The position numbers were made by a program, and so were the translations under genes. From Octopus vulgaris (taxonomy: Eukaryota), in assembly GCA_951406725.2 (NCBI GenBank), contig OX597827.1:21638001-21702000 (forward strand): a DNA stretch of 64,000 bases, given 5' to 3'. Of the stretch, positions 3,275 to 33,222 are shown piece after piece; the first letter of the stretch is position 1; each line of letters starts with the position of its first letter. The notes under the pieces are model-generated. The model ran no database searches and was not told the origin of the DNA. It was given only the letters and a program-made list of their open reading frames with translations.

Positions 3275-3597
3275 CGATGGGTGAATGAATTATCCTATGT
3301 TTACCGTTAACATGGAAAATTCAATGAACTGTTACCAGGGTAGTAAATTCACGTCAGAAACTCAGTTGAAGCGACCTATCCAAAGGTAGAAACTCAGGGT
3401 TAATGTGCAGTAATTTGTGTGTTACAGATGAATAAATAAATAAATGGAGTTGAACGAAGATGTTAATGAAATTCCTTTACTTTCGACATATGTTTCGAAG
3501 ACTAACAGTTTTTTTAAATACTTAATAATGTTCTGTTTATCATGTAGGCAGCCATCGTAAATGTTATAATGTCTTGTTGTTGACAGAGGCTCTCTTT

Positions 3598-3679
3598 CTT
3601 TCCTGATGAGAAGATTGCATCTTACACTGTTTATCCCTTTGGAATAAAACCATGTTGTCTTCGAAACATATGTCGAAAG
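3598..3679 (+). ncRNA. Type I minimal hammerhead ribozyme in a Penelope-like fold-back insert (3426-3733)
   Basis: Stem I CTTTC/GAAAG, core CTGATGA (3603-3609), stem II GAAGA/TCTTC, GAAA (3663-3666), stem III with palindrome ACATATGT. Cleavage triplet GUC, after 3674. Confidence 0.8.
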
Positions 3680-3857
3680 TAAAGGAATTTTATTAACATC
3701 TTCATTCAACTCCATTTATTTATTTATTCATCTATATATATATATATATATATATTAATAATAATATGACAACAAAAGGAATGAATGAGACCTCAATATT
3801 GTGTAAAATAGAGGAATTTATCAATAAATATAACATGTGACAATTAGTTGGTTGTCG

Positions 3858-3920
3858 TAATAAAACTCACAGTTTCAGATGTTGGGGCTGAAGTCTGCTC
3901 TGGCACCTCATCAGTTATTA
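3858..3920 (-). ncRNA. Slightly degenerate type I hammerhead in fold-back element 3760-4005
   Basis: Minus strand reads TAATAA-CTGATGA-GGTG...CATCT-GAAA-CTGTGAG-TT-TTATTA. Stem I is a perfect 6 bp and stem II is imperfect. A related copy lies at 32930-33110. Confidence 0.55.
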
Positions 3921-4018
3921 AGACATGCCGGAGCAGACTTCAGCCCCAACATCTGAAACTGAGTTTTATTAAGACAACCAACTAATTATCACATATTATA
4001 CTTTTATATATATATATA

Positions 4019-4353
4019 GGCGCAGGAGTGGCTGTGTGGTAAGTAGCTTGCTTACCAACCACGTGGTTCCGGGTTCAGTCCCACTGTGTGGCATCTTGGG
4101 CAAGTGTCTTCTGCTATAGCCCCGGGCCGACCAATGCCTTGTGAGTGGATTTGGTAGACGGAAACTGAAAGAAGCCTGTCGTATATATGTATATATATAC
4201 GTGTGTGTTTACGTCCCTGTCACTTAGCGGTTCGGCAAAAGAGACCGATAGAATAAGTACTGGGCTTACAAAGACTAAGTCCCGGGGTCGATTTGTTCGA
4301 CTAAAGGCGGTGCTCCAGCATGGCCGCAGTCAAATGACTGAAACAAGTAAAAG
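4019..4353 (+). mobile_element. Major tRNA-derived SINE (octopus OR/OK-like family)
   Basis: Head GGCGCAGGAGTGGCTGTGTGG with B-box-like GGTTCAGTCCC. Ends ...GACTGAAACAAGTAAAAGA. Near-identical copies elsewhere in the window. Confidence 0.85.
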
Positions 4354-4424
<71 letters not shown>

Positions 4425-5743
4425 ATGTATGTAGGTGCCAATGATGAGAAACAAGTTATTATGACAGAGAAGAAAAATATTTTGCTAGAAAATCAATAAG
4501 AGAGCCTCTATGTGGTTTCTTGACCTGCTAATAATAGTAGACACATCTCCCTCAAAACACATCTGTCATACAAAAAGAATACAACAGGGGGACATATTAG
4601 ATAATGCCATCATAGATACAATATGTGTGAATACCAGTTATGAGAGTCGTGGTTGAATTGTCTTTGATCATAAATGAATCCTCAGTCTGAGCTGAGTTTG
4701 GGTTTAATAGCAGCAACAACAGTACAGTGGAAGATTAATAGAAAGAAGACGAAAACTAGAGCATTAGTAGCCAAGACTGTTGATAGTAATGACTGTGAAA
4801 TCCCTCAGGCTTTCTCACTATTAGGGTAGGGGCCAGAACAAGAGGAGAGGGGATATAAATATAGTCAACCTTTTGCTCAGTTGCACACCTGGGTTTCAAT
4901 TATTTTTTGTGTGTTTTACTACATAAAGGTCATCAACTGCCTACCCTGAGTAATTACTGATGGCATATACCTGATATATATATATATAATGTATATATAT
5001 ATATATATGTATATGTTGTTGTTATTATTATTATTATTATCATTATTATTATTCAGGTCACTGCCTGGAATCGAACTCAGAATTTTGGGGTTAGTAGCCT
5101 GTGCTCTTAACCACTACGTCGTATGTTTGTCAAATGTAAATAACGTACATAATTCCTCATCTCTTAAATATAGAACAATATTTATGTTTTCTTCAGAATA
5201 AATAGGGTCAGTGGTCCCCAATTTCCTGCCAGGATTGACTTCCTTACTCTACACTTCTCCTCAAGCATTCACTGGCAGTTAGGGTTTATGCTTGGAGTTA
5301 TGCTTTTATACTTCTCCTCATCTTGCTGCTCTCTGCGATTGCCAAGCCTAAACTGCCCCTCCCCTCAATTATATCACAAATGTAGATGCAGTGGTGGTTT
5401 CTTCTGGAGATATACTTTCATGAAAGCTAAAGAGGGCAGCTCATCACTCACTCACTTGATATTTCTAAGTCCTCGTGCTTTTGCCTGGTGGTTGTGGAAC
5501 TTATATTCAGCTCAGCTTTTCCTTTTGATAAATATAGTATTTGTCCTGCTGGACATCTTGCAACCCATCCACCACCACCATCAAGTCTAGTGGAGCGGGG
5601 TGGGGCTGGTTTAGTCACTGATGACCTGACTATGGAAACAGGTCATACTGGATTACACTGTGAGTAACCTGGTGTGCGTGTGAGAGAGGGACCTGACACA
5701 TTATATCTATCTATCTATCTATCTATATATATATATATATATA

Positions 5744-5845
5744 CTTTATTTAAAGCAGCAGAAAATTCTACAAAACCTGTTACTCTGAGTTTCGAGTTGC
5801 TCAGAGTAACAGGTTTTGTAGAATTTTCTGCTGCTTTAAATAAAG
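5744..5845. repeat. Perfect 46-bp inverted repeat (Penelope-like fold-back) between (TA)n tracts
   Basis: Arms 5744-5789 and 5800-5845 with a 10-nt loop. The minus strand carries a hammerhead-like 3' half, GAAACTCAGAGTA. Confidence 0.85.
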
Positions 5846-5915
5846 CATATTACTCTACCACTGGTATTTGAGTACCCTTTTTTCCACCTTGTTTCACATT
5901 TATGTGTTTACTTCG

Positions 5916-5966
<51 letters not shown>

Positions 5967-6089
5967 GATGAATATGGTACTTAAGTTAAGGCACCAGAAT
6001 TTAGTACAGTATTATCCACACAATTTCAAAATAAGGTGATTAAAATCAAAATAAGCAACAAGGATATCCAGGGGAGTGTGTATATATAC

Positions 6090-6340
6090 ATCACCATCAT
6101 CATCATTATTTAATGTCCGTTTTCCATGCTGGCATGGGTTGGATGGTTTGACTGGGGACTGGTAAGCCAAGGGGCCACACCAGGCTCCAGTCTGATCTGG
6201 CAATGTTTCTACAGCTGGATACCCTTCCTAATGCCAACCACTCTGAGAGTGTAGTGGGTGCTTTTTACGTGCCACCGGTACAGGAGCCTGTCAAGCTGCA
6301 CTGGCATCGCCCATGTTCAGATGGTGCTTTTTACATACGT
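6090..6340 (-). mobile_element. RTE-related SINE or LINE 3' end with (GAT)n tail. Other copies near 9000, 12830, 20460, 21245, 27560, 38000, 40500, 48985, 49720, 53545, 58396, 58578, 59220 and 60532
   Basis: Shared core GCTGGATGCCCTTCCTAA(C/T)GCCAACCAC and terminal ...GGACGTTAAACGATGATGATG. The same core follows RTE coding sequence at 49260-50095. Confidence 0.8.
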
Positions 6341-6391
6341 ATATGTGCATGTGAACGCATCAGGACCAGACATATGCATATACAAGTACAC

Positions 6392-6435
<44 letters not shown>

Positions 6436-7082
6436 ATGCGTGTGTGTGTGTGTGCATGCATGTGTATGCGTGTGAAAAAGTATGTTAGATTTACAAACAG
6501 AAGGAAAATACTTTCAATACATTATGTGGAATATATAAATTCTATTTTTGAAGATGGAATTATATTGGCAGTTTCTCTGGCATTCAAGTTTCATATACAA
6601 CATTTGTTGAAACATATTTGACCCTGCAAGTGTTGCACCCAACACTCAAGCACCAAAGTTACTACTGGAATATTTCCAACTTAAAAAATAAATTAGATGC
6701 ATGTCTGTAGGTGTTGTAGCCAGGATTAGAAACTCGTCTACTTGGGTCAATAGTTCTTCATTAATAACTGATGAAATTCTAAAAATGCTATTTCTTCAAA
6801 GAGACTTTTACTTCTCACCATTCCTCGGATATCAATTGTACCACATTCTTCATTTTCTGCAGATTCTTAATGATAATTCCAATGCCCTCACTGAAGATAA
6901 CCCTGGTTTTATCTAATGTCAGATAGAATTAAGTTGGGTGCCCTTTACTTTGACTGTCTTTCACTAGAATTTGATTCTTGAGGAAATCTTAAAACCAAAC
7001 GATATAAAAAGAGAAACAAATATTTATTCCATCAATTATTGAAAAGTTTCTTTTCTTGATATAATCCTAAATTAGCTCTCTT

Positions 7083-7500
7083 GGATCTTTTCGGTTTGGA
7101 CGGCAGTTTTTTCTAGCGGTGTCATATGAAATTGTCACCCATAATTATGACCCTAGTATCGATCTATTGCATTTCAATCAGTTTTAGGGTTAGGGTTAGG
7201 GTTAGGGGTGGAGAGAAGGGTATCTTTTTTTCTTCACAAATGTAAATAAACCCAATCTGTATCTTAAACGAGGGACATATTCATACGGCACAGAATGTTT
7301 TTTACCTCAATAGACGTCAGTGATTGGTTGAAATTGCAGAAATTGAAGAAAAAACAAATATCTTACAAACTATAGAATTTTCTCAATAAAGCCAAGAAAA
7401 AAAGATGTTTTATAAACACATTCTACCAGTATACGAAGTTTAAAATGTTTTAGTTACCTAGAAATTATGTTAAAAACTGCCATTCAAACCGAAAAGATCC
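7083..7500. mobile_element. MITE with GG-terminal TIRs and 8-bp TSD (Merlin-like), containing (TTAGGG)n
   Basis: TIR GGATCTTTTCGGTTTGGACGGCAGTTTTT and AAAAACTGCCATTCAAACCGAAAAGATCC. TSD GCTCTCTT at 7075-7082 and 7501-7508. TTAGGG x4 at about 7184-7207. Confidence 0.85.
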
Positions 7501-8411
7501 GCTCTCTTAACTGCAACTACAATATACTGGTGCCATGTCTGTTTCCATGCCAACAATCCTCTCAATGTACCCCTCTTATAGAATCACTTCAGACGTGATT
7601 CCACTGTAAAATCCACTGTTCTGAATATCATAGAGGCACCTGGAAAAGGAATCAATATATTTTTCTGAAATTATTGCAAAATATTTTTGAATTTAACAAA
7701 AAAAAAAAAATTTGAGACAATCAAAGTATGAATGTGAAATACCATTCTTTGATATTGGCAAAGGTCAAACTTGGAGAATTCCTGATTCCTGAAATTATCT
7801 CCCTTCCTCAAGTGGAACTGGCCTTAATTGTCATTTGGTTATTATGATACATCCCCAAGAGACAGAGAGAATTATCACAAATCAAGCATTTATGTTGTAT
7901 GGTATTTGATGTACCTGTATTTGTCTATGGTGTTCAAATACATGCCACTGGCCATTCTAGAGTTATTTCTCTTATTATGCAAATTTCCTCGGACACAAAT
8001 ATATATATATATTTTTTTTTTAAATATTTTTGTATAAGTCTCAGTCTCTTGGCTCCTGGAGATGAGGCAGGACAATTGTGCTGCTGGTGATGATGACTCT
8101 GATGAGTCTGGAACATGGGACCACGATTGTCCTCTTACCACCTGATCTTTTTGTTAATATCGTATCAACTTTAGAGAATTCTTGAACCTTTTAATTATCT
8201 CCCATTCTCAAGTGGAACTGGTTATAATTGTCATTTATTAATTATGAAACATCATTAGAGGCAGAAATAATTTTAATAAATCGAGAATTTATGCTATATT
8301 GTATTTGATATATCTATATTTGTCTATTATGCATGTGCATATGTGTGTGTGTGTATATATAAATATATATACATAAACACACACACACACATATACATGT
8401 ATGTATGTATG

Positions 8412-8455
<44 letters not shown>

Positions 8456-9426
8456 CATGTATTTATGTATGTATGTATGTATGTATGTATGTATGTGTGT
8501 ATGTATGCATGTATGTATGCATGCATGTATATGCTAATTATACAAGCAATTTGATTTCTGCTTGTTAGTAAATTCTCCACAAATGTAGGAATATTCCTTT
8601 ATAACTTCTAAGGAGCAAACCATCAATTGTACCTATCTAAATTCTTTGGTACAACATTGTAATATTCCTGGAAAGTCTTAATGTATTAATTATTAATTAT
8701 TTGAAAGTAAAATTCTGGAATGAGAAAACCTGATGCCGTAATATCTAAGAGAATAATTTTTTAGAATAATTTCAATGACCTTAAATTGCTCAAAATTTTA
8801 GAAAAATTAAGACACAGCAAAAATTAAGTTTGATTAGATTTGTTTTTTATATAGCATGTCTCCATTTCCTTTTACTGATTTAAAGAACAACATAGAATAA
8901 ATTGTTCAATATCGAAGTGAAAATAAAGAGGAAATTAAGTATTTTATAAATTTAATGGAAAAAATATGAACAAATTGAAAATGGATCTGAACAATCATCA
9001 TCATCATCATCGTCATCATTATTATTATTTAATGTCTGTTTCCCATACTGGTATTGGTTGGAGAGTTTGAAAGGAGTCAGCAAATCAGAAGGCTGCACCA
9101 AACTCCACTGTCTGCTCTGGCATGGTTTCTATGGCTGGATGCCCTTCCAAATGCCAACCACTTTACAGGATGGTCTGGGTGCTCTTTTCCTTGGCACCAG
9201 CACTGTGTGAGGTCACCAAGTACCTTGAAAGACAAAGACCTACAACTGAGAGGAGGGATTCTACTGGGATGAGTCTTTGTGGCTGGGAATGAGAGGTGAA
9301 ATCATGATAGGACGGAAGCAGGTGTCTTTCTGTAGAGGAAATACATAGTTTATCCCAGTTGGAAAAAAGAGAGACAAAGAAAGAGAGAGAAAGAGAGAGA
9401 GGAAGAAGGGTGGTGGTGAAGATGTG

Positions 9427-12400
9427 TGTTGTGATGAGAGTTATGACACCCCCCTCTCAAGAAATAGATTGGTCCAAGCAATTATAAACAGTAGTGGTTG
9501 GAATGAAGTTTGCATGTTAGTTCAACCTGAACTTGCACCGAAACTGTAAGTTGTTCTAATGGTAGTCATTCGAATTACTGTGTGTTGGTCCCGTCACTAG
9601 AATGTGGTAAGGATTCGATTCCCCTGCTCACAATATATCAGCTACAGCTGTGCAGTGTTAACCAGTTAGAGGAGATGTCTTCTTGGGGTCAAAAATCACA
9701 GTTAAGTCTGTTTGAACAAAAAACAAGAGTGCTGTGTGCAACGAAAAATAGTACCTAAGAGTCAGGCAACAATTACGTTACAACATCTGGCAACAAGGGT
9801 TTCAAAGCTCATCTAGGTTATTTAACCAATTTGTTCATGATACAACTTGTTAAATGATGGAAGACCTATTAGTTCCTATAATACAGTTGCAAGAGTAAGA
9901 ACAAGAACAACAACAGGATTTGCAGAAGCAACTAGTACAGCAACAACAATTATTGGAGCTATATGCCAAGAAGTCAGAAAATTTGGTAAGTTCATTTTCA
10001 CCAGGGGCGCATGAAACTCCATAACAGAATTCAGTTATAACCCAGAGTAAATATAACTTTTGCAGCATACTACAAAAGGTACAAGGAGATTTTTAAGGAA
10101 GATTGCAAAACATGGTCGGACAAAGAAAAAGTAAGGTCTGAGCATGAACAATACTGTAATTTCATATTGCCTAAAAAGTCTAGTGAAATTGTTTTCAGGG
10201 AACAATCAAATTATTGTCTAACATTTTCGGTGATAAAACTTCTCTATTTAACAATTGAATGGAGTGTTGGAATTTAACTAAAAAAAAAAGGATGATGACT
10301 TTATTATGCATGAAGGAACAGTCAACAGAATGTGTGAAAGTTTTAAACTTGAAGAACTTACTCCTGAGACGTTTAAGTGCCTCATTTTTGTATAAGGCTT
10401 TACAGCAAATGAAGATACAGAAATATGGGCAAGAATTCTTCCAAAACTTGAACAAGTGAACTCAGATTTAACCCAGCAGATTGTTGCAGAGAGTGTCAAA
10501 GGATGGTAAACCTGAATCATGACATAAGAAAAATTCAAGAAAAAGATTTCACAAAAACACAGATATGTCGACCGAGAAAGTATAGCCAAAGAAGATTGCT
10601 AGGTCTTAATCCATGTTTCAGATGTGGAGGGCTACATTTCAAAAAAGATTGTCTTTTTTAAAACTAAAAAAAGTAAAAAAATTTGGACACAAGAGTTCAC
10701 ACTGCAGAACAAAAGTCTCAAGATCAAATGTAGGAAGTAAAATCGATTCCCAAATAAGGAAATTTGTACAAGTAAAAGTAAACGGACAAAATCTTAAATT
10801 ACAACTGGATTCTGGTAGTGACATTTCAATCATTAACACCAACAAGTGGAAGAAAATAGGGAAAGGTATGTTAAGAAAAACAGCAAAGACTGCACATGAC
10901 GGGTGACAAACTACACTTTGTAGGTGAGATGTGGAATGATGTCACACTTCAAGGAAAAACTTGCAAAAGTTTCCATTGTAAAGAATGCAACCAATCTATT
11001 TGGTACTGACTGGTTGGAATTATTTGACTTATGGGATTTCCTAATAAACCAGTAATGTAAAAAATTAAATGGCTGCCTCACCAATGAAGCGTTATGTGTA
11101 ATGTTATTCACAAACTGCCAGAGACAGCGTAGGAAATAAAAATGAAATCCACAGAGGTTAATTACAAGAATGAAAGAAATGTTGAAAAATGAGCAAAATA
11201 AAAATACAAATTTGAATAATTTTTCACTATGCAACAATGTTTTAATGTACACGCAAAGCGTGGTTGTATCATTTGCAGAAACAAGTATTGCAAAGGTTCC
11301 ACAGTGGACACCCGAAAATGTCGAGAATGAAAGCCTTAATGGGAAGCTTTGTATATTGGCCAACAATGGACCAGAACATTGAAAATTGTGTAAAATCATA
11401 AAGAGATTGTACGCTAGCAACCAATGGTGAAATACCAATCATGGCCTGAAACAGATAATCTGTGGTCCACGGTATTGCTATTGATTACGCTGGACTGGTG
11501 AATGGTGCATACTATCTAATCATTGTTGATAGTGGTACAAAGTGGCCAGAGGTATGCAGGTGCAATAAACCAAATACAAAGACAACAATAAAGTTCCTGT
11601 ATGAATTATTTGCCTGATACGGTGTTCCAGGCATGTTGGTGTCAGATAATGCAACACATTTTACAGGTTATGAATTCAAAAATTTCTGCAAAATACATGC
11701 AAAAAAACCATATTTTTATCCCACCCTACCACCCAAGGTCAAACAGGCAGGTAGAAAGATTCGTTGATATATTCAAGCAAGCATTAAAAAAAAGCCAGGT
11801 ATGTCATAGTTAATGACCAGGTGCTAACAAAATTCTTGAAGATATATATAGTAATGCCCAATCCAAATACCAGTTCAGGAAAATCTCTGGCAGAGTTAAT
11901 GTTTGCACAAAAAATAAAATCGATCTTCAATGAATTATTGTTAGGAAAAAATATATTAAAGGAAATATAGAAAATACAACAAAGCATTTTAAAGTAAGAA
12001 ATAAAGTTCATTTTAAAATTTACAAAAATGGTAAAGAAGACTGGGAGGGTGGTTTTGTAACTAAAAGATTAGGAAACATGATATATGTAATCAAAGGACA
12101 ACATTGGGAACGTAAGACACCTAAACCAATTAAAGACGAGACATACTGAAGAACAAAAGGAAATACCAATGGAAGTCTACTATGACATGTCTGAGGTGCC
12201 AGCACGAAAAGAGATTGAGCCTCATAGAAGCAGCAGTAGAAAAAGGAAACAGACTATACTCTTAGAAGTAATGCCAAAACAAAAAAGATATTAGATTTCT
12301 AAAGAAAAAAAGAAGAAAGGGAAGTGCTGGAAAAAGAAAAGGAAAAATAAAATGAATTTCACTTCTTATGGAAGTTGAAATCTCAAAAAGGGGAGATGTT

Positions 12401-12631: not shown

Positions 12632-15049
12632 CTGGCACAATGTATCTAAACCATCTGTCATAATATCATGGCAGTACCATGATGTGGGAAACAGAAGCTA
12701 CGTGTCGGGGTGTATCCAATTTAAACTGAAATGGCTACAGGTAACCACTATAGTAATCAAGCTGTCCTGAGAAAAGCACCAGTTGTCCACTGTTAGGGGT
12801 CATTGTAAGAGTCAATCTATTACAAAGACAGTTTGTAGAGACAGCCCACTCTATGGAGTGGTTGATGTTAGAAAGGGCATCCAGCCATAAAATCCATGCC
12901 AAAATGCACTCAAAAGTATGGCGCAGGCTCCTGTCAAACCGTCCAACCCATGACAGCATGGAAAATGGACATTAAATGATGATGATGATGATGATGAGTT
13001 TGTTCCTTAACTTATTGATGGTATCTTATGGTGTGTTGTCTGTTGGCTTTGCAAAGTAAATTATTCTTGGTTGCTATGGAAATAAGGACATATATCACAC
13101 AGTAAAAAAGCTGTGTAGTCTTTGTGGCAAAAAACAACAACCGCATTGTTGTTGTTGCTGTCAATATTGGTTGAACTAATCTATAATCAAAGGAGTATGG
13201 TTATCCCTTTTTTGTTTAAGGTGTAATATGACCAGGTCTACATAAACCGCTAACTTGCTCTTTTGAAACACCAGCATTTGAATTTAGGAAGAATTGGTTC
13301 ATTCTTTATATAAGAACCATTTGTTACGTTCCACCAACAGATCTAATAATGGCTTCTAATTTAAGCACTTTATGTCACTGCCCTCAAAAGGATGAAAAAG
13401 CAAAGCTGACATTGACAGAATTTGAACTCAGAATCTGTAGAGGTGGTATAAATACTGTCCAGTCCACCTCTTTTGTATTTGTTTCCCTGAAGGCAGAAAA
13501 TGTTTTTTGCTCTTTGGTTAAGTTTGTGTTGTTCTTGCAACAGGCCATTCTCTGATGTTCTAACCATTCTTCCGATTTGTGACTCTAATTTGAAATAAAA
13601 CGTATCATCACAAAGTCATTTATTTGACTAAATTCTATTAAATTCTTGATTCTGTTCGGAGTCAATTGAAAATGATGAACAATGTATTTCGCAAGAAATA
13701 TTGTTGTGAAATGGTTAAAGTCTGAAGGTTTTTGTCAGTAAACACCATAGTTTAGTAATATGAACATCAAACTAAATACTGTCCAACAAAAATTTGTGGG
13801 TTAAGTCTAAAGTTGTGGTCCTTAACAATAAATGGATGACTGATGGTAAGGATACTGTCATATCTTCTACAAAGGATTGTCCTCCAAAAATATACTGATT
13901 TCCCATTTAGACACAAGGCCAGTAATTTCAGAGGCAGGGGAGGGGGGGATGAAGTCAATTACATCAACCCCAGTGTTTGACTGGGACTTACTTTATCAAC
14001 CCCCAAAAGGATGAAAGGCAAGGTTGACCTCGGGGGAATTTGAACTCAGGACATAATGATGGATGAAATTCCACTAAGCATTTTCCCCAGCAACACTGCC
14101 GGCTCACAGCCCTTCCAAAATATATTGGTGGATGACGTCTTAGATCCTCTCCTGTGAAAATGGCACTGATGAAATGATTAATAGCATATATTTTATCCCC
14201 TTCTTTGTATCTTTGAGTCCATCAGACTTGTGAAAATGTTACATTCTTATTTTAGGAGGAAGATACATCGTCTAAAGGGAGGAGGTGTTCTCTGGTGGCA
14301 AAAGACAACAGGAATCAGTATCCACATTGGAATCTACCAAAACATTGAAAATGAATTGATATATTTTGATTTGGGTTGTTGCTGTTTTGTAGGCATCTTT
14401 TGAATGGCTAAATTCTAAAAACTTTTGAAAAAGGTTTAGATTCTTGTGTGTAGGAGCTGCACCGTCCTAGATGTGTGAAGAATATATTCTTACTTTTGTG
14501 ATTTCTAAGAGTTGGTTATTGTTCAAAGCTGAAATGTTTTATGGTCTTCGAGGGAATTTTGGTAATGCTTGTTGAATACACAGTTTTAATGTTGATTCCT
14601 GCATATTAGATATTTGAAACATTCTTCATAGACGCTTCTTTACCAATTCCTCATCACAATCAATCTTAGAAATACTGGCTCTAACAGTCCATGGAGTCAA
14701 TTTGGTGGGGGTTTTTTAAGGGTTTTCTCAATGACGGGGCTGCGCTAAGGACATTTTCAGGTCTCCAAGACTTGGTGAAATCAATAAAGTTTGATATTCA
14801 TCTTCAACAATTTCAAATTGATTGCAGCAAGAAAAATATGAGCAGGGAGAGAATTCTAGAAAAGTGACTTTCTTGTTAATGAAGAACTGAGAAAAATGGC
14901 TGCAGATGTAAACAAACCAACACCAGTTGTCAAACGTCAGGGGTACAAACAGAGACCTACACACTCATACAAAAAGACACACACAGACATATATATATAT
15001 AAATGCTTACTGGAAACAAAATAACAGTTTGTGGCATTTCATTACGTAA

Positions 15050-15262
15050 TCAGTTAAAAAAAACATAATAAATGCACAAATAAATGGCAGTAGGTCACCA
15101 AATTCTCATCAGTTATCGGTCAGCGGGTCAAACACCATTATTTGTCTTCAAATCATTGAAGGCGTGAAACTGAGTTTGACCCTCTGACCGATAACTGATG
15201 AGAATTCGGTGACCTTCAATGTCTGTCTTCCATTTGTTTGTGCATTTATTATGTTTTTTAAC
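15050..15262. repeat. Fold-back (inverted) Penelope-like repeat with a related single arm at 16365-16507
   Basis: TTCTCATCAGTTATCGGTCAG..GGTCAAAC is inverted as GTTTGACC..CTGACCGATAACTGATGAGAA. The outer arm AGTTAAAAAAACATAATAAATGCACAAA is also mirrored. Confidence 0.65.
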
Positions 15263-16203: not shown

Positions 16204-16255
<52 letters not shown>

Positions 16256-16507
16256 ATAGTCTTAGTTTTATCACATGCTTTCACTGCACTACTGAGCATA
16301 GCTCTGAGGGCCTTGGATATGTGCTGCAGTTTGTTGTGATGCTCTTATTGTTAGTGTATTGAAAATTTATAAATGCTTACTGTAGACAAAATAAGAGTTT
16401 GTGGCATTTCATTACATAATAAGTTAAAAAAACATGATAAATGGAAAACAGACACAGAAGGTCACTAAATTCTCATCCGTTATCAGCCAGAGGGTCCTCA
16501 AACACCA

Positions 16508-16886
16508 TTATTACCTCTGCCTTAGCGAAGGCAGAGGTATTGTTTTCAGTCGTGTTTGTTTGTTGTTTGTCCATGGACAAGATATCTCAAGAACCGCTGG
16601 ATGGATTCAGAAGGAACTTTCAGGGATGTTTGGCCTCGTGACTGGCATGAGCTGATTAGATTTTGGGATCAATCAGGTATCGGAGAAGGATTATGGATTA
16701 TTTTTCCGTTTTTCTTTTTTTTAACTTAATTATTAAGAGTAGTCGGGTTCATTTTTAGTATTGTCGTTTGTGAGAGCAGTCGAGTTTATTTCAGATATTC
16801 TCATTTTAAAAATCATCTCTGGCTAATCATTGAGAGGACGTTGGTGTTGTCTTGGCAGAGGTTTGTGCTCTCTGAGTGCTCTTGTT
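16508..16886 (+). mobile_element. Helentron-associated (HINE/DINE-1-like) non-autonomous element
   Basis: TTATTACCTCTGCC..GGCAGAGGT hairpin, GTTT microsatellite, a distal subterminal repeat GGCAGAGGT and a 3' stem GTGCTCTCTGAGTGC. Second copy at 56904-57271. Confidence 0.7.
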
Positions 16887-20046: not shown

Positions 20047-20048
20047 AA

Positions 20049-20088
<40 letters not shown>

Positions 20089-20345: not shown

Positions 20346-20348
<3 letters not shown>

Positions 20349-21670: not shown

Positions 21671-21738
<68 letters not shown>

Positions 21739-21938: not shown

Positions 21939-21969
<31 letters not shown>

Positions 21970-22311: not shown

Positions 22312-22397
<86 letters not shown>

Positions 22398-22466
22398 ATA
22401 TGTATGGCCGCAGTCAAATGACTGAAACAAGTAAAAGAATAAAAGAAAAGAATAAAAGAATATATA

Positions 22467-22504
<38 letters not shown>

Positions 22505-23493: not shown

Positions 23494-23544
23494 TATATAT
23501 ATAAATGAGCATGTGTTTCTCTTTAAATATATATAGAGAGAGAT

Positions 23545-24110
23545 ATCATCATTTAACGTCTGTGTTCCATGCTAGCATGAGTGGGATGGTTTCACAGGAA
23601 CCAGCCAGGCCGAAGCCTGCACCAGACGTCTCTGACTGTTTTGGCAGGAATTTTACAGCTGGATGCCCTTCCTAACAGCAACCACTCAGCAGAGTGGACT
23701 TAGTGCTTTTCACGTGGCACAAGCACAGGAGAGGTCAGTTTTGGCAAGGTTTTCACAGCTGGATGCCCTTCTGAACACCTATGACTTTACAGTGTGGACT
23801 GGGTGCTTTTAAGTGGCACCTGCACTGACAGGGTCACCAAGTACTAGCAAGACAAAAACTTTTAAGAGGGGAGGAGGCATTGGAGGAAGTGATGATGAAA
23901 AGGTTATAGTGAGATAGATACAGGTGTCTTGCTGTAGAGGAAGTACAAGATTACCTGGCCGGAGAGAGAGAAAGATCAGGAATGAAGACAGAAACAGGTG
24001 TGCTACCACAAAGAAAATACACGGTTGGCCAACTTGAGGGAAGTGCAGGAGAAGGAGAGAGAGAGAGACAGACAGCAGGATGGAGATGGTGGCAAAGTGC
24101 TGAACATACT
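23545..24110 (-). mobile_element. About 570-bp RTE-related repeat; second copy at 61370-61950
   Basis: The two copies are colinear, for example TTTTAAGTGGCACCTGCACTGACAGGGTCACCAAGTACT. Confidence 0.75.
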
Positions 24111-25356
24111 CACAAGGGACAGGGATCAGAGTATAAATGAGATGGTTGAGTAAAGAAAGAGAGAGATATAGAGAGTGGCAAGTGCCAGGGGATAGCCTTG
24201 AGGTTCAAGTGCCATATGAGTGACAGGATATTGCGAAGGGAGTGCGATTAAAGAGTGCGAGTAAGAGGTGAAAGACCTCAGTATATATAGAGTTGGAGGG
24301 GCTGCTGGATAGCAATGATACAGAGGAACAGGGGTGTGAGGACAGGATTAGGGAGTGAGAGCTAGGCATAGTGAATGAAGGAGGAAATATAAGAAAGAGA
24401 TGTAGATTGGTTTGTTGGGGTAGGGTGAGTGAAAAGTTTTCTTGTTCTGTGTGGGTGGAACACCCAAATCAGGGGCTAGCAGATAGCAATAATAGAGTGA
24501 GACAAGGCATGTGGGTAGAACGCACAGGTTGGGGGCAGGCAGAGAACAATGATACAGTGGCACAGGGCCAAGAGGGCAGGATTGGGGAGTGGGAGGTAAG
24601 CATAGTTCATGAAGTGGAAATGTGAGGAAGAGAAGGGATGTAGAGACATAGTTTGGTTTGCTGTGGTAGAGTGTGTGAGAAGTTTTCTACACAGCACTTC
24701 TAGAACTGTTTTTGCTGACGTGGGCAGGTCTTCTCAAGAACTTCATATCACCAAACATCTTGGTCCATGGTCATTTCCTCTGTGAGGTCCAACCTCTTGA
24801 GATCAGTCCTTACCACTTCATCTCGTGTCTTCCTGGGTCTCCCTCTTCCATGGGTACCATCCACTTTCAGTGATCAGCACTTCTTTATGCAGCTGTTCTC
24901 ATTCATACACATCACATGTCCAAACCAATGTCATCTTCTCTCTTGCTTGCTACGTACATATGTGTATATATATATATATATATATGGGGTGTATATATGT
25001 ATGTGCGCATGTGTGTGTGTATATATATATATATATATCACACATACACATAGGTATGTACATATGTGTGTGTGTATATGTATGTATACATATACATATA
25101 TATATATGAGAGATACATGAATGATGCCAAACCAGATATTGGGACATGATACAATCCTGTGAAAGTACCCAACCTATGCCGACATGGAAGAGGATATTAA
25201 ACGATGCTGTGTTCGTCGTCATTGTCTCATCCTCTTGTCCTCATCATCCAGCTGATGGTGGTGATCATTATTATTATGATTATGATGATGGTGGCAATGA
25301 TGGTAGTGACAACTGGACTCACAGAACACAAGTCATCATTCCTCGATATTATTATC

Positions 25357-25400
<44 letters not shown>

Positions 25401-26430
25401 AACAGCTAGATTGTCAACACAATATCAACTGCCAATGACACAATAATAGTATTAATTTTTTAAGTAAGCAAGGGAGACAATTCATAACATGTTTCATCCT
25501 TATTACACATCCTCAGTAAAACACTGACTACCTCTAACTTGGCAAAATACTGATGAGAGAATCAATCATAAGGTTGAGTGCACAATATTTAAGATTAGAA
25601 GGCAATAATTCATATATTTAGAAGAAAAAAACCCATAAATCTCTGAGGAAAATGCATCTTAGATAATGTTGTTCTCTTGTCCCGTCTGTTGATTACAACA
25701 CTTGAGCTGCTCTTTTCCTTCGGTCATGTTACACAATGTATCCCCCCCCCACTTCTCTTTCTGATGTTTTTCTCATGATATAAATGAAATTAGGTCAGTA
25801 TGTGCTGGATAGGGGTGGGAGAGGTCCTGCTATTGTTGTTGACATATCTGTCTTTGCTCTTCAATGTGAACTCAGATTCATAAACAAAACATCACTCTCC
25901 CCTTCTCTCTCTCTTTCCATCTTTCTCTCTACTTTTCTCTATCTCCTTCTCTCTCTCCATCTTTCTCTTTCTCTCTCTCACTTCTCTCTCACTCTATTTT
26001 AACAAACAAACACACACACACAGGTATGCTTTAGAAAACCTTCAAACTGTCGAAACAAGACAATTTTGTTTGTGGTTGTTGTTGTTTTGGAGTTATTAAT
26101 TACCACAGCACTGGCAGAAGAGTTGTTGAGTGTATATTCGTCTGTGTGCGTGTGTGTGTTTAGTCAGTTTGAAGGTTTTCTAAACCATACACGTGTGTGT
26201 GTGTTCAATCTTACATTAATCTCATGGGTTCTCTCTATTTTTGAAGAGTAAAAACCTAATCACCACCCGACTCAAACCCAAAAATGATTTGAATTCAGCA
26301 GAGACTATACAAAGGGAAGACTTACTCTAATGCATCGTTGTCCGATGATGGTATAGCTGGACAAAACTTTGAAGTCACTGTCAACAACAGTCATATATAA
26401 CAATGATAAATATATAATATAGACACACCT

Positions 26431-26475
<45 letters not shown>

Positions 26476-26478
26476 CAT

Positions 26479-26644
26479 AGGCGCAGGAGTGGCTGTGTGG
26501 TAAGTAGCTTGTTTACCAACCACATGGTTCTGGGTTCAGTCCCACTGTGTGGCACCTTGGGCAAGTGTTTTCTACTATTGCCTCGGGCCGACCAAAGCCT
26601 TGTGAGTGGATTTGGTAGACAGAAACTGAAAGAAGCCCGTCGTA

Positions 26645-26684
<40 letters not shown>

Positions 26685-26895
26685 TGTGTGTGTGTGTTTG
26701 TCCCCCTAGCATTGCTTGACAACCGATGCTGGTGTGTTTATGTCCCCCGTTACTTAGCGGTTCGGCAAAAAGAGACCGATAGAATGAGTACTGAGCTTAC
26801 AAAAAGAGTAAGTCCCGGGGTCGAGTTGCTCGACTAAAGGCGGTGCTCCAGCATGGCCGCAGTCAAATGACTGAAACAAGTAAAAGAGTAAAAGA
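26479..26895 (+). mobile_element. Major tRNA-derived SINE; further copy at 28110-28515
   Basis: Full-length match to 4019 and 29030. Confidence 0.85.
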
Positions 26896-29029
26896 GATAC
26901 ATATATACACAAAATATATATATAGGGATGTAGCCAGCCCACTTATGCATATCTTTCTTTCTTTGGACACAAAACTCTGCTTGTGAAGACTTGTTGAAGC
27001 AAGTGGAATCGAAATTGAATTTGAAATCGAACCCGATGACTGGCACCCATGCCAACCTCCCTTCATTGGACACTAAACTCTGCTTGCGAAAACCTGTTGG
27101 AGCAAGTGAAATTGAAATTGAACCAAATTTGATGACTGGCACCCATTCCAGTGGAGCGCTAACAGCTCCATCTGAGCAGGATCACTGCCAGAGCGGCTGT
27201 CTGGCTTCCATGCCAGTGGCACATAAAAAGCACCATTAGAACATGATAGTTACCAGCGTCGCCTTACTGGTACGTGAAAAAAACATTCGAGCGAGGTCGT
27301 TGCCAGTGCCACTGGACTGACTCCTGTGTGGGTGGCACATAAAAAACCCCATTTGAACGTGGCCGTTGCCAGTACCGCCAGACTGGCCCTCATGCCAGTG
27401 ACACATAAAAGCACCCACTTCTATTTGGAATTCATCACTACATATATATATATATAAAGATATACACACACATACACATATACATACAGATATTGTATAT
27501 TGAGAAAAAGGAGGCAGTCAGAATTTTGGATAATTCTTTATTCTATATATATATATATATATCATCATCATCGTTTAACGTCTGCTTTCTATGCAAGCAT
27601 GGGTTGGACGATTTGTCTGAGGACTGGCGAGCCAGAAGGCTGCACCAGGCTCCAATCTAATCTGGCAAAGTTTCTACAGCTGGATGCCCTTCCTAGTGCC
27701 AACCACTCTGAGAGTGTAGTGGGTTCTTTTACGTGCCCCCAGCATGAGGGCCAGTCAGGCGGTTCTGGCAATGACCATACTCAGAAGGTGTTTTTACGTG
27801 CTACCTGCACGGGAGCCAGTCCGGCGACACTAGCAACGACCATGCTCAAATGTTGTTTTTCAAGTGCCACTGGTACATGTGCCATTAAGGCGATGCTGGC
27901 AATGATCACACTTGAATGGTGCTTTTTACGTGTCACCGAGATGGGAGCTAGTCAGTGGCCCTGGCAACAATCACTCTTGGATGTGCTTTTAATGTTCCAC
28001 TGGCACAAGTGCCAATCAGGCAGTACTGTTATAGGCCACGTCAGAAATTTTGATTTATATATATGTGTGTGTGTGTATATGTATGTATGTATGCATGTGT
28101 GTATAATATAGGCACAGGAGTGGTTGTGTGGTAAGTAGCTTACTTACCAACAACATGGTTCCGGGTTCAGTCCCACTGTGTGGCACGTTAGGCAAACGTC
28201 TTCTATTATAGCCTCGGGCTGACCAAAGCCTTGTAAGTGGAATTGGTAGATGGAAACTGAAAGAAGCTCATTGTATATATATGTGTGTGTGTGTGTATGT
28301 ATGTTTGTGTGTCTGTGTTTGTCCCCCCAACATCACTTCACAGTTGATGCAGGTGTGTTTACGTACCCCGTAACTTAGTGGTTTGGCAAAGAAACTGATA
28401 GAATAAGTACTAGGCTTACAAAGAATAAGTCCTGGGGTCGATTTGCTCAACTAAAGGCGGTGCACCAGCATGGCTGCAGTCAAATGACTGAAACAAGTAA
28501 AAGAATAAAAGAATATACATATATATATATATATATATATATGCATATATATATATATATATACACACACACATATTTACTTAGTAGATAGATATACATA
28601 TATAGATACATGCAAGCATAAATATATATGTATATATACACACACACATATATAAACACACATACACATACACACACACATATATTCTTTTATTCTCTTA
28701 CTATATATATTTTCTTTTTCTTTCTTTTTTTTTCTGTTTTAGTTTCAGCTCAGAGCTGTGGACATGCGGATGCACCGCCGTTAAAAATATTTTGTAATCT
28801 CTATAAAATTCAATTATCAAGAACTCAACTGCCACTTAAATACATTTTGAAATCTGATATATATACGATGGGCTTGGTCGGCCCGATGCTATAGAAGACA
28901 CTTGCCCAAGGTGCCACGCAATGGTACTGTACCCAGAACTAAGCAAGCTACTTACCACACAGCCACTCCTGCATGTTCAAATTATATATATATATATACA
29001 TAAATTAATTTTGAAAGGAATTCTTCCAC

Positions 29030-29432
29030 AGGCGCAAGAGTGGCTGTGTGGTAAGTAGCTTGCTAACCAACCACATGGTTCCGGGTTCAGTCCCACTGCG
29101 TGGCATCTTGGGCAAGTGTCTTCTGCTATAGCCCCGGGCCGACCAATGCCTTGTGAGTGGATTTGGTAGAGGGAAACTGAAAGAAGCCTGTCGTATATAT
29201 GTATATATATATAAGTGTGTGTGCATATGTTTGCGTGTCTGTGTTTGTCCCCCTAGCATTGCTTGACAACCGATGCTGGTGTGTTTACGTCCCCGTCACT
29301 TAGCGGTTCGGCAAAAGTGACTGATAGAATAAGTACTGGGCTTACAAAGAATAAGTCCCGGGGTCGATTTGCTCGACTAAAGGCGGTGCTCCAGCATGGC
29401 CGTAGTCAAATGACTGAAACAAGTAAAAGAGT
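29030..29432 (+). mobile_element. Major tRNA-derived SINE, young copy
   Basis: Near-identical to the inverted copy at 32340-32752. Confidence 0.88.
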
Positions 29433-29579
29433 AGATCCAACAAATTTTGAACTTAGCACATTACCCCTACCTATAGCACTGTCTTTGTGAACCCCAGAGT
29501 AAGCGGGTGACAACTTTAGAAATATGTTAACACAAGAAGGATTGAGTGCATGGTTAATATAAAGCGTTACGCCTATCAG

Positions 29580-30015
29580 AAAATCAAAAAAAAAATGTGT
29601 GTAATAGGTGTAAAACAACTTCCTATGAACGAATATGAAAAAAAAATGCCCGCACGCGAAAGGGGGGTGGGGGAGAGGCCTCGGAAAATTCACATCGGGA
29701 AGTTCCGAAAGCGTCTGAGGGGCTGACCCGGGCATGAATATGACCAAAAAAATGCGCTCTCGCGAAAGAGGGGTGGGGGAGAGGCTTCGGAAAATTTATA
29801 TCGGGAATTTCCGAAAGCGTCTGAACCGGGCACAAAAACAAAAACAGCGTAATAGGTGTAAAACAACTTGCTCTAAACGAATATGATAAAAAAAAATGCG
29901 CGCTCGCGAAAGGGGGGTGGGGGAGAGGCTTCGGAAATTTCCCATCTTCAGTCCACGGCCTTTAAACTAAGAAAAAATAGTGTAATTGGTGTAAAACTAC
30001 TTGTTCTAAACGATT
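29580..30015. repeat. Interleaved G-rich internal tandem repeats of a probable DNA-transposon derivative (about 29450-30220)
   Basis: AAAAAATGCGC..CGCGAAAGGGGGGTGGGGGAGAGGC(C/T)TCGGAAA occurs 3 times and GTAATAGGTGTAAAACAACTT occurs 3 times. Confidence 0.7.
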
Positions 30016-30239
30016 ATCAAGAACACACACTCACACATGAATCATAAACTCCGTATTTTTGTACATATTTCGCAAAAAAAAAATTAATAAAGAGAAGAAA
30101 TTCTGGAAAAAGTGACGCAATTTGAAACCTTAATTGCACTCGATTCAAAAACTATTGTAGATTTTGACATTATGATGCTTGACCTTTCCTAGTTTTATGA
30201 TACATTAAAAATTATAGGTTGTTTGCACCAACTGTTAAA

Positions 30240-31542
30240 AAAAATATAGTAGTAGGAACAATTCGTCAGAACAGAAGGGAATTACCAGAAACAGTAAAAC
30301 AGGTGAAACCAGTCCATGGAACTGTGGTTTTGAAATGCAGAGAAGCCTACTGTCACATTTACATCGTACCAGTGCAAAAAACCAAAGTCTGTTGTTGTTT
30401 TGAGAACCAACATGTAGAAGTTCCTTCTGAAAATAATCCCAAGAAGCCTGACACCATACGTTTTTATAACGAAAATAGGATAGGCGTAGACGTGCTTGAG
30501 CAAATGGCAAGACTTTATTCCACGCTAATATACTCGTATGTACAAAATATAGTAAATTTTTCAATCAAAATTTATTCAATATTCGCATACCTATTTGCGA
30601 CATAGGTCGCGTTTCCACAACGAATTAAAATGATCAGAAATCGTCCGGTGACTGGCATTTGAATGGAAATTTTGTTATCACTATAAAACACATATTGCTA
30701 GGTTTATATCGCCCCTTTGAGACCCAACTACACTTTAGCTTAAAAATATAGAATACCTCATAAGTAATATTGTTTGTTCCTTCTCGAGCCATGCCTGGCT
30801 CATAAGAGCCGGTTTCCCGGTTTCCTTGGCGTATAGGTTCCCCACCTGGACGAGACACCGGTCCGTCGCAGGTGAGCTGCAAGATGCAGGAGGAAAGAGT
30901 GAGAGAAAGCTGTGGCGAAAGTGTCAGCAGGAGTCTCGTCATTACCTTCTGCCGGAGCCGCATGGAGCTTAGGTGTTTTCGCTTATAAACACACATCACC
31001 TGGTCCGAGATTTGAACCCGCGACCGCGAGTCCGCTGCTCTAACCACTAGGCCATGTGCCCCCACCATAAGTAATATAAACGTTCTAAATTCAGTGGCGG
31101 CATTAATGAAGATGTTACGCGTTAATTTAATGAGTTAAACTTATCTTTATTAATGTATATCGGATATATATATACAAGATTTACACAGATATAAGAGTTA
31201 GAACCTGTGATCCGCCCGCGGCTATCCATCGCTCTATTCAGGAAACATCTACCTCTTGGAATAAAGTCAGACGTAAATGTGTGAAAGCAAAATAATGAAA
31301 CAGAACCCCAGAAATGTATAACCTCTGTGTGGCAAACGGGCGCCAAAACGTTGATATGAATGTTTAGAATTTCAATAAATTTCTTTTTATTTTGTAAGGA
31401 TAAATTTCTTTCAAAAAACATCAACTAATATCAAAATTCAATAGGTTATACATTTAATAAAGGTTTTCTACCTCTCCTTTTCTTTTCCTTTGAAACCGAA
31501 AAACCTCTTAGCGTCAATTGACGCATTTTGGTACTTCAAGGT
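30240..31542 (+). mobile_element. piggyBac transposon remnant (C-terminal transposase fragment plus probable 3' end)
   Basis: VVGTIRQNRRELP and KKPDTIRFYNENRIGVDVLEQMARLYST at 30240-30525. Subterminal palindrome GCGTCAATTGACGC and GGTACTTCAAGG near 31511-31541. Confidence 0.75.
30771..31066 (-). mobile_element. tRNA-derived SINE with TSD, inserted into the piggyBac remnant
   Basis: A box TGGCCTAGTGG, B box GGTTCAAATC. TSD ATAAGTAATAT at 30760-30770 and 31067-31077. Confidence 0.88.
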
Positions 31543-31964
31543 CGGCGAAAGAGTCCGGTCCTTCTTACGTCGACGCTCTGAGAAATATCATCGACAATGA
31601 TCAGTCATGTAGAGTTGTGTCCCCCTCGATCGGTAAAAAGTGGTTGTTATGGAGATAAGTGTAAACAATATGTATAATTCTCAGCTGTTTGGTTTATTGA
31701 TATCCCTTAAACAATGGCGATGCTTCGGTATAGGTACACGCGTGACTTTGTTTACATTTCTGAAGATAACAGAAACCCTTTTCTCTCACCCCTAACCCTA
31801 ACCCCCCATATATAAAAAATACACTTTCTTGAAATGTATCCGGTATTACACCGAAATTACGCCTAACAATTTAATTACGTTCTATTTAATTGATATGGGC
31901 GCAGGAGTGGCTGTAAAAGAGTAAAAAAGGAGTGAAGAATATATATATATATATATATATATAT

Positions 31965-32211
31965 AATCCGCTATGGTCTTACCACTAAGAAACGAATGTT
32001 CTCATGAAAATTTTAGCAAACGCCAAAATAATCATAAACTAGTTTCGTTGTTACCACTTACGTAAGTATTTACGTAAGTCGTAATAGCGAAAATAGTTTA
32101 TGATTAATCCATATTTTCTTTCTTTTCATTTGCCTTCTTCGTTTACGTTCTGGCGTTTGCTAAAATTTTCTTGAGAACATTCCTTTCTTAGTGGTAAGAC
32201 CATAACGGATT
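31965..32211. repeat. About 250-bp fold-back insert next to (TA)n
   Basis: AATCCGCTATGGTCTTACCACTAAGAAA... is mirrored by ...TTTCTTAGTGGTAAGACCATAACGGATT. The inner arms carry GAAA(C/A)TAGTT hammerhead-like 3' halves. Confidence 0.8.
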
Positions 32212-32339
32212 TATTTCTAGCATATGGATGTCCACGTAGTGGTAATCCCTCTTATATGTATGTAATATTACTTTTCTGTATCTTCAGATTTTAATATGCT
32301 AGACCACTGGTTTTAAATTGATATTAATCAAATTAATTT

Positions 32340-32752
32340 TTTTTTTTTTACTCTTTTACTTGTTTCAGTCATTTGACTGCGGCCATGCTGGAGCACCGCC
32401 TTTAGTCGAGCAAATCGACCCCGGGACTTATTCTTTGTAAGCCCAGTACTTATTCTATCGGTCTCTTTTGCCGAACCAATAAGTGACGGGGACGTAAACA
32501 CACCAGCATCGGTTGTCAAGCAATGCTAGGGGGACGAACACAGACACACAAACACACACACAAATATATATATATATATACATATATACGACAGGCTTCT
32601 TTCAGTTTCCGTCTACCAAATCCACTCACAAGGCATTGGTCGGCCCGGGGCTATAGCAGAAGACACTTGCCCAAGATGCCACGCAGTGGGACTGAACCCG
32701 GAACCATGTGGTTGGTTAGCAAGCTACTTACCACACAGCCACTCCTGCGCCT
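32340..32752 (-). mobile_element. Major tRNA-derived SINE, young copy
   Basis: Inverted, near-identical partner of 29030-29432. Confidence 0.88.
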
Positions 32753-32872
32753 AATATTCAATTTTTCACCCTTATTATTTTAAATATATATATATATATA
32801 TATAAAACGTGTAAAAAAGTAAAAGTATATATAAATTATATACATATAGACTTGCATACATACATTCATGTA

Positions 32873-32923
<51 letters not shown>

Positions 32924-33222
32924 ATAGAAATGGTAAGACAACAAAAGAATGAAAGAGACCTTGATATTATGGAAATAAAGGAATTTATCTGTAAATATAA
33001 TATTTGACAATTATTCGGTAGCCATGATTAAACTCCAAGCCCTGACATCCGAAACTCGGAGTTTTTATCATGGCTACCGAATAATTGTCACATATTATAT
33101 TTACAGATATATATATATATATATAAGTACATACATATATATATATGTCTGGTACACAAGACCTCAGTCAAATCATCCAACCCATGCTAGCATGGAAAGC
33201 GGACGTTAAACGATGATGATGA

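What the first reader, a model, noticed from the sequence alone, without database searches (positions are those of the whole stretch)
3426..33110. Recurring class: (TA)n-associated fold-back inserts whose inversion point falls in a hammerhead
Seen: inserts of at least five unrelated sequences (3426-3733, 3760-4005 with 32930-33110, 5744-5845, 15050-15262, 31965-32211) share one architecture. They are short, sit in or beside (TA)n, and have inverted arms that break at or just beyond a GAAA-short palindrome-TH motif. Inference: these are non-autonomous or truncated Penelope products in which template switching occurs preferentially at the ribozyme stem II. A GIY-YIG remnant at 43420-43655 shows that PLEs were active here. 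This would couple ribozymes, microsatellite targeting and hairpin (dsRNA) generation.
Basis: inference. Interest (0 to 1): 0.72.

Follow-up and report, generated by a model that had tools for sequence, protein, structure and literature searches.

The report
Penelope stubs end at RNA start
The hairpin-like inserts are pairs of short, head-to-head copies of Penelope-type jumping genes whose ends pile up just in front of the element's predicted ribozyme rather than in its stem II, likely because both cut DNA strands copy the RNA and run off its capped start, a testable clue to how these elements replicate.

Summary
A, B and C trace to Penelope-like parents with RT and GIY-YIG; C has an intact 710-aa ORF with Hydra-type motifs. 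This architecture is published. The stem II claim fails genome-wide. In 185 loci of four families the break rate in stem-loop II equals background (30/4356 nt vs 60/8793 nt). Only 32 of 173 fold-backs have an end there, although all five scorable window copies do. Ends pile up at the ribozyme's 5' edge instead (rate ratio 6.5), replicated in family F (3.2) and in 89 further family C loci (7.3), but absent in family E. The boundary is sharp, at a pyrimidine-A step; 11 of 11 joined arms ending exactly there have G instead of the templated C (5 informative). Upstream repeats of ORF-bearing copies never end there (0 of 17). Best reading: twin-primed cDNAs running off a capped RNA start. No RNA data were available. 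This scan reported the same pile-up in other genomes; I found no paper on it.

The parts
3271..3502 (-). Family A long arm: 157-nt tail plus repeat, 5' end in the 3' strand of stem II (ref -232/-230)
3501..3733 (+). Family A short arm, 5' end 96 nt upstream of helix I (ref -387), 3' end at the short site, then (TA)n
3598..3679 (+). Predicted type I hammerhead of family A (helix I 5 bp, II 6 bp with long loop, III palindromic)
3762..3925 (-). Family B long arm with 55-nt tail, 5' end in the helix I 5' strand (ref -158/-161)
3855..3924 (-). Predicted type I hammerhead of family B
3922..4005 (+). Family B short arm, starts in the 5' strand of stem II
5744..5800 (-). Family C short arm, 5' end in loop II (ref -129)
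5802..5917 (+). Family C long arm with 68-nt tail, 5' end in stem III (ref -117); parent is an intact PLE (L215)
15003..15262 (.). Family D head-to-head insert with one-sided tail (about 15003-15057); old family, hammerhead and parent ORF not established
31966..32075 (-). Family E short arm with an internal deletion (ref -262..-222), 5' end in loop II (ref -309)
32060..32785 (+). Family E long arm from loop II to the long end, interrupted by a SINE at about 32335-32752; family looks like a non-coding tandem unit of about 550 nt
32925..33039 (-). Family F (relative of B) long arm with tail, 5' end at GAAA/stem III (ref -115)
33040..33112 (+). Family F short arm, 5' end in loop II (ref -130)
43420..43655 (-). 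Decayed GIY-YIG endonuclease remnant of another PLE family
42857..42942 (-). Degenerate hammerhead-like motif about 480 nt downstream of the remnant on the same strand, likely its 3' repeat

Best explanation
Each insert is two 5'-truncated copies of the terminal repeat of a Penelope-like element, joined head to head inside (TA)n, and most copies of families B, C and F stop at a boundary just upstream of the hammerhead, likely because both cut target strands prime reverse transcription at two fixed internal sites of the RNA and run off its capped 5' end. Shown: the two fixed 3' ends, the head-to-head joint with 0-5 nt microhomology or a short filler, shared variants between arms, the position of the pile-up, and the coding parents. 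Inferred: (1) the endonuclease opens (TA)n, which offers the same primer on both strands; (2) one cDNA starts at the short site and one at the long site, which makes the tail; (3) the template is usually a linear RNA that begins 17-27 nt before CUGANGA, so copies are 80-190 nt stubs; (4) the two cDNA ends anneal and are repaired, giving a fold-back where they overlap and a plain inversion where the long cDNA stops inside the tail; (5) long and partial-tandem copies come from a second template without that end (read-through, end-to-end jump or RNA circle). The ribozyme is copied because it lies between the start sites and the RNA end; it is not the switch point.
For: Fixed 3' ends: short arm at -153..-162 in A, -69 in C, -54 in B, -59 in F. 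201 of 312 scored loci have an inverted partner and 173 are true fold-backs. Rates per 100 nt in A, B, C, E (185 loci, window copies dropped): downstream 0.68, stem-loop II 0.69, helix I 5' strand 4.4, next 10 nt 5.0, 31-100 nt upstream 0.55; edge vs rest of ribozyme RR 6.5, p 3e-29 (window chosen after seeing the data). Replications with the window fixed beforehand: F RR 3.2, p 0.002; 89 family C loci taken in order along one contig RR 7.3, p 3e-25, long arms alone RR 6.9. Sharp upstream limit: C 11 ends at -157, then 1, 1, 0; B 4 ends at -170, then none for about 40 nt. In F the peak moves to 19-36 nt before the core and stays at the motif shared with B, beyond the helix. G instead of the templated C before the boundary A in 11 of 11 joined arms, against 80 of 336 elsewhere. 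Both arms end within 6 nt of each other more often than in permutations (C 19/48 and 22/58, B 8/19, E 5/18; p 0.0005-0.04; A 0/7). Arms share non-majority variants in all five families (p 0.0005-0.015). 0 of 17 ORF-linked upstream repeats that reach -141 end in -141..-159, against 65 of 89 stub arms, so the site is not an intrinsic stop. The two repeats of full-length copies differ by 0.6% upstream of -157 against 3.6% between copies (18 elements). In vitro, the Anolis PLE cuts and extends both strands, starts internally at two sites that define the tail, and does not need ribozyme cleavage (PMC11167929). The Drosophila Penelope promoter is internal to the repeat (PMC2377424).
Against: No RNA 5' end was measured. 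Family E shows no edge excess (1/201 nt, RR 0.5) and breaks mostly 70-150 nt past its short end; A is weak (RR 3.7, p 0.011) and has no sharp boundary. Six of the 11 G cases follow automatically from palindromic overlap, leaving 5 informative (3 untemplated G, 2 joints with no other microhomology); 0 of 6 unjoined arms at the boundary carry G; a looser test gave only 20/68 vs 23/137, p 0.045; position -154 in C also shows G in 19 of 20 because of the CTAG palindrome. The boundary lies within 1-3 nt of the end of an extended helix I in C (predicted) and 3-7 nt before a splice-acceptor-like AG in B, C and F. All five scorable window copies have an end in stem-loop II, probability about 0.001 from family rates. 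Samples other than A and the two C pattern sets are the best-scoring 40 hits, and arms of one locus are not independent.
Confidence: 0.62

Rival explanations
1. The ribozyme fold itself ends the cDNA: once helix I has been copied the nascent DNA pairs with itself or with the other cDNA, leaves the RNA and is joined.
For: The pile-up covers the helix I 5' strand in B and C. Predicted extended helix I in C ends at about -154. Some junctions use helix I, II or III complementarity or the CTAG palindrome (6 perfect CTAG palindromes among 62 joints).
Against: No stop on the second pass through the same sequence (0 of 17); peak lies beyond the helix in F; absent in E; does not explain the G.
Confidence: 0.15
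2. The RNA end is real but processed, not a start site: nuclease trimming up to the protein-bound ribozyme, or a splicing-related end at the acceptor-like AG just before helix I.
For: Pyrimidine tract plus AG directly at the boundary in B, C and F; in D. virilis the intron ends at the 5' end of helix I (PMC4209133); ends are ragged on the downstream side.
Against: No arm near the boundary continues into an upstream exon (0 of 114 in C, 0 of 16 in F; 2 of 6 in B matched only TA-rich repeat); ends include the AG and 2-5 nt more; the extra G fits a cap.
Confidence: 0.13
3. One reading: template switching preferentially at stem II.
For: All five scorable window copies have one end in stem-loop II; F shows RR 2.8 (p 0.10); a few joints use stem II complementarity (L118, L249).
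Against: Pooled RR 1.01, 1.35 in the replication; 32 of 173 fold-backs.
Confidence: 0.03
4. Self-priming: one cDNA (or an antisense template) folds back and copies itself, as proposed for rotifer Penelope palindromes.
For: Symmetric ends and shared variants between arms; short snap-back fillers in L070, L237, L357; proposed in PMC3846280.
Against: In 21 of 28 inverted A loci the arms do not overlap at all; in 26 of 58 C fold-backs the short arm reaches more than 6 nt further 5' than the long arm, so it cannot be copied from it. It may still make some symmetric joints.
Confidence: 0.07

Closest known systems
Insertion unit of endonuclease-positive PLEs: pLTR, adjacent inverted 5'-truncated copy, one-sided tail (PMC8557442 Fig. 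2; PMC3846280)
   Same: Head-to-head inverted copy, tail on one arm, microsatellite target, hammerhead in the repeat.
   Different: Tails are 55-157 nt rather than 30-40; most insertions are 100-350 nt stubs; a 5'-end pile-up with an extra G is not described in the passages read.
Hydra-clade PLEs (PMC8557442)
   Same: Family C ORF has RWK, DKT, a CxCX5C-type linker (second Cys is Phe in the copy read), C-terminal GIY-YIG, (TA)n targets, hammerhead.
   Different: Unit about 3.4 kb (clade generally under 3 kb); no tree was built; it retains a C..C..E and RH arrangement whose match to the clade's motifs I did not align.
PAc (Poseidon of Anolis), in vitro mechanism (PMC11167929)
   Same: Two internal RT start sites downstream of the ribozyme near the ORF start; both strands extended; AT-rich target.
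   Different: Sites here are 55-157 nt apart and in C lie 5' of the ATG, with a third 3' end at about +75..+108; fate of the cDNA 5' ends was not addressed there.
Non-LTR retrozymes (PMC7229834; 10.64898/2026.07.22.740005)
   Same: Family E: type I hammerhead in a non-coding unit that occurs head to tail (L139, L142, L265).
   Different: Unit about 550 nt (reported 150-400 nt range is recalled); mostly dispersed head-to-head stubs; no RNA tested.
L1 twin priming (recalled, no call)
   Same: Two target-primed cDNAs joined head to head by microhomology.
   Different: Second priming site is fixed, and the two cDNAs often overlap, giving a duplication.

Membership tests
Endonuclease-positive Penelope-like element | Single ORF with RT and C-terminal GIY-YIG | tested here: met
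   C: intact 710-aa ORF with RT and endonuclease motifs read by eye (no Pfam hit). A and B: broken RT and endonuclease frames upstream of the repeat, 28-50% identity to the C ORF. Not found for D, E; F only through its relation to B.
Endonuclease-positive Penelope-like element | Pseudo-LTR (partial tandem) flanking the ORF | tested here: met
   L215 and 17 of 20 further fetched C elements carry two or more direct repeats around the ORF.
Endonuclease-positive Penelope-like element | Inverted 5'-truncated copy and one-sided tail | tested here: met
   201 of 312 loci; all six window inserts.
Hydra clade | RWK, DKT and CxCX5C linker; (TA)n targets | tested here: met
   RWK and DKT present, linker present with one Cys changed in the copy read; DKT also in an A parent; motifs from PMC8557442.
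Hydra clade | Monophyly with described Hydra RTs | not tested
   No reference proteins were fetched.
Type I hammerhead ribozyme | CUGANGA, GAAA, NUH with helices I, II, III in type I order | tested here: met
   A, B in the window; C, E, F in genomic copies; some C subfamilies have CCGAYGA.
Type I hammerhead ribozyme (family D) | Same core in type I order | tested here: not met
   CUGAUGA lies 3' of the GAAA motif and no GAAA follows in 20 copies.
Type I hammerhead ribozyme | Self-cleavage | not testable with these tools
   No excess of ends at the predicted cut in C (1 in 633 nt; 3 in 481 nt).
Non-LTR retrozyme (family E) | Head-to-tail non-coding units each with a hammerhead | tested here: inconclusive
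   Tail joined to unit start in 3 of 40 loci; no full dimer examined; no ORF search beyond 1.5 kb flanks.
Non-LTR retrozyme (family E) | Circular RNA | not testable with these tools
   No raw RNA reads listed for the one stretch searched, which was family C.
MITE or self-replicating fold-back element | Copies share one junction and both ends | tested here: not met
   Junctions differ among most loci; the commonest identical joint is 6 of 62 and occurs in two subfamilies.

The most novel reading that the evidence does not exclude
Penelope-like elements use two templates: a capped linear RNA starting just before the hammerhead, whose twin run-off cDNAs integrate as thousands of head-to-head stubs (a fossil equivalent of retroviral strong-stop DNA, cap G included), and a ribozyme-cut, religated circle that alone yields full-length and partial-tandem copies. 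The genome would then map the start site of every family and give the hammerhead its role.
Probability: 0.3. Interest if true: 0.7.

Novelty: new member of a known kind. Interest (0 to 1): 0.45.

Why it matters
How PLEs build their tandem and inverted structures and what the hammerhead does are stated as open in PMC8557442 and PMC11167929. The stubs give exact predictions: RNA start positions for three families, two primed cDNAs per insertion, no role for stem II, and a different template for long copies. An intact young element (at least 4,913 exact tail-plus-TA matches for its subfamily) is at hand for an in vitro test. The fold-backs would form stable hairpins if transcribed (-70 to -137 kcal/mol), but that is a by-product and expression was not shown.

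Tried and rejected
Stem II enrichment: rejected. Excess at the predicted cleavage site: not seen in C; a few ends near it in A and E, too few to call. Rfam: only microRNA-like hairpin hits below gathering scores, no hammerhead family among the rows shown (114 low rows not displayed). Pfam: nothing for the C ORF. Spliced copies: none. Hammerhead in D: not assembled. RNA evidence: no RNA holder listed and no raw reads for the C junction; no reads were laid. Target-site duplications cannot be read in (TA)n. First all-against-all script timed out. Rows dropped before counts: the window's own copies (L048, L061, L091, L125, L275), a duplicate (L043), a tandem junction (L139 partner, whole locus), 12 repeated C loci, L368 in the replication, and the length-biased sets L001-L030, L267-L274, L155-L184. 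Of the 100 listed rows, 90 were examined (the first 91 less one already held). Literature searches listed no paper on a pile-up of PLE 5' ends upstream of the hammerhead; subscription papers and supplements were not seen, and supplements of PMC8557442 may hold these families.
Full report
Setting. The window is G000:C14:21638001-21702000 of a 2.8-Gb genome. Its SINEs look octopus-like (recalled, no call). Positions given as negative numbers count back from the long 3' end of each family's reference copy.

Observation. Self-BLAST finds all six fold-backs. Each is longer than stated because one arm carries a tail: A 3271-3733, B 3762-4005, C 5744-5917, D about 15003-15262, E 31966-32785 with a SINE inside, F 32925-33112. 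Complete type I hammerhead folds are present in A and B; 3 sites in the window against 0.017 in shuffles. C, E and F hold the 3' half, and their genomic relatives hold the whole motif. D does not give a hammerhead in type I order. The GIY-YIG remnant is real but belongs to another family.

Parents. Family C leads to an intact element: repeat, 710-aa ORF, 3' UTR, repeat, (TA)n. RWK, DKT and the linker fit the Hydra clade as described in PMC8557442 (passages). Its tail plus TA has 4,913 exact matches. A (2163 candidates) and B (1084) lead to broken RT and GIY-YIG frames related to C. E appears as a unit of about 550 nt whose tail can join its own start, like a retrozyme; no ORF was seen in 1.5-kb flanks.

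Architecture. Anchoring on the 3' end, 201 of 312 loci have an inverted partner joined 5' end to 5' end, and 173 overlap to form a fold-back. One arm ends at a long site and the other at a fixed short site. In A the long arm usually stops inside the tail, so 21 of 28 inversions have no overlap. Arms share non-majority variants more than shuffled pairs in all five families, so they come from one source element. This is the published PLE unit (PMC8557442 passages; PMC3846280 passages; opposite-strand hammerhead pairs are mentioned in PMC4209133, parts 1-2 of 4). It matches the in vitro result that a PLE protein extends both strands from two internal sites (PMC11167929, parts 1-2 of 4).

Breakpoints. 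I counted ends per nucleotide traversed. In 185 loci of A, B, C, E: downstream of the ribozyme 60/8793 nt, stem-loop II 30/4356, core 14/1064, helix I 5' strand 47/1061, next 10 nt 40/797, 31-100 nt upstream 14/2548. Stem II equals background. The 5' edge is 6.5-fold higher (A 3.7, B 5.8, C 11, E 0.5). That window was chosen after seeing the data, so I repeated it unchanged. In F (39 loci) RR was 3.2, p 0.002, but the true peak lay 19-36 nt before the core, and stem II gave 2.8, p 0.10. In 89 further C loci RR was 7.3, stem II 1.35, cleavage site 1 end in 633 nt. Overall 32 of 173 fold-backs have an end in stem-loop II, 115 somewhere in the ribozyme and 102 within 36 nt before the core. The window's five of five in stem-loop II is unlikely from these rates (about 0.001) and I take it as chance plus selection; it does not recur in the same families.

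What sets the edge. The upstream limit is sharp: C -157, B -170. It is a pyrimidine-A step; in C it matches the initiator pattern YYANWYY (recalled), one of 6 matches in 330 nt. Eleven of 11 joined arms ending exactly there have G where the element has C, against 80 of 336 elsewhere. Six of these follow from palindromic overlap; five are informative; none of 6 unjoined arms has G; a looser test was marginal. An extra G opposite a cap is known from LINE and Alu copies (recalled). Copies without a partner also stop at the edge (12 of 23). Upstream repeats of ORF-bearing copies pass the same sequence without stopping (0 of 17; two end at -161 and -170), which argues for a template end and against a structural block. 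Within full-length elements the two repeats are nearly identical upstream of the boundary, as expected from an end-to-end jump or a circle; circles were proposed in PMC4209133 and shown for retrozymes in PMC7229834 (passages). The D. virilis promoter is internal to the repeat, with an intron 46 nt after the start (PMC2377424 passages) that ends at helix I. B, C and F have an acceptor-like AG at the boundary, yet no spliced copy was found.

Mechanism. Most likely (0.62): twin target-primed cDNAs from two fixed sites run off a capped RNA that starts just before the ribozyme and are joined head to head. Rivals: a helix-driven stop (0.15), a processed RNA end (0.13), self-priming as the main route (0.07), stem II switching (0.03). 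No RNA data could be obtained.

Novelty. The elements and their architecture are known in kind. The pile-up and the contrast between stubs and long copies were not found in eight literature searches. Also seen: 10.64898/2026.07.22.740005, part 1 of 5; PMC13282606, passages only, no bearing on breakpoints. No supplements were read. Earlier notes of this scan describe the same pile-up in other genomes and related families in this one; I had recorded the edge result before reading them, and they are not evidence.

Noticed in passing
window 33272-33470: A further (TA)n-flanked insert with a hammerhead-like fold on the minus strand (core CCGACGA at 33392), not in the finding.
   Followed up: partly
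window 58395-58724 and 50539-50718; L007 1-354, L013 1865-2234, L027 2744-2963: Near-perfect palindromes (86-98%) centred on or made of simple repeats, one made of two SINE copies around (TA)n; no hammerhead looked for in the loci; may be a separate fold-back process.
   Followed up: no
window 41259-41377: A 119-nt fold-back without adjacent (TA)n and without a hammerhead match.
   Followed up: no
L052, L317, L318: Family A parents carry a long (AAT)n/(GAT)n/(GGT)n insert between RT and endonuclease, like the asparagine-rich inserts reported for rotifer Penelope (PMC3846280).
   Followed up: partly
L322, L326, L332, L333, L334, L335, L339: Family C has a third 3' end at about +75 to +108, around the ORF start; one such stub (L333) also starts at -157.
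   Followed up: partly
L215 200-1726: The intact family C element sits directly after the 3' part of a different PLE ORF (weak RVT_1 and GIY-YIG hits, Neptune-like linker by recall).
   Followed up: partly
Family C stem-loop II (L061-L090): Loop II varies between GCAA and GGAA, both GNRA, and the core between CUGAUGA, CCGAUGA and CCGACGA across subfamilies.
   Followed up: no
window 16365-16510: A second, single-armed family D copy 1.3 kb from the first.
   Followed up: partly
Family D copies L462-L480: Conserved CUGAUGA preceded by a 6-bp helix (type II/III-like order) but no GAAA in a usable place; possibly a rearranged or different RNA motif.
   Followed up: partly
L315, minus strand: A 557-aa C2H2 zinc-finger reading frame lies just upstream of a family B parent.
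   Followed up: no
window 54747-55581 and 55928-56381: Complex minisatellites (13-nt unit with higher-order 87-200 nt periods; 18-nt unit, 25 copies).
   Followed up: no
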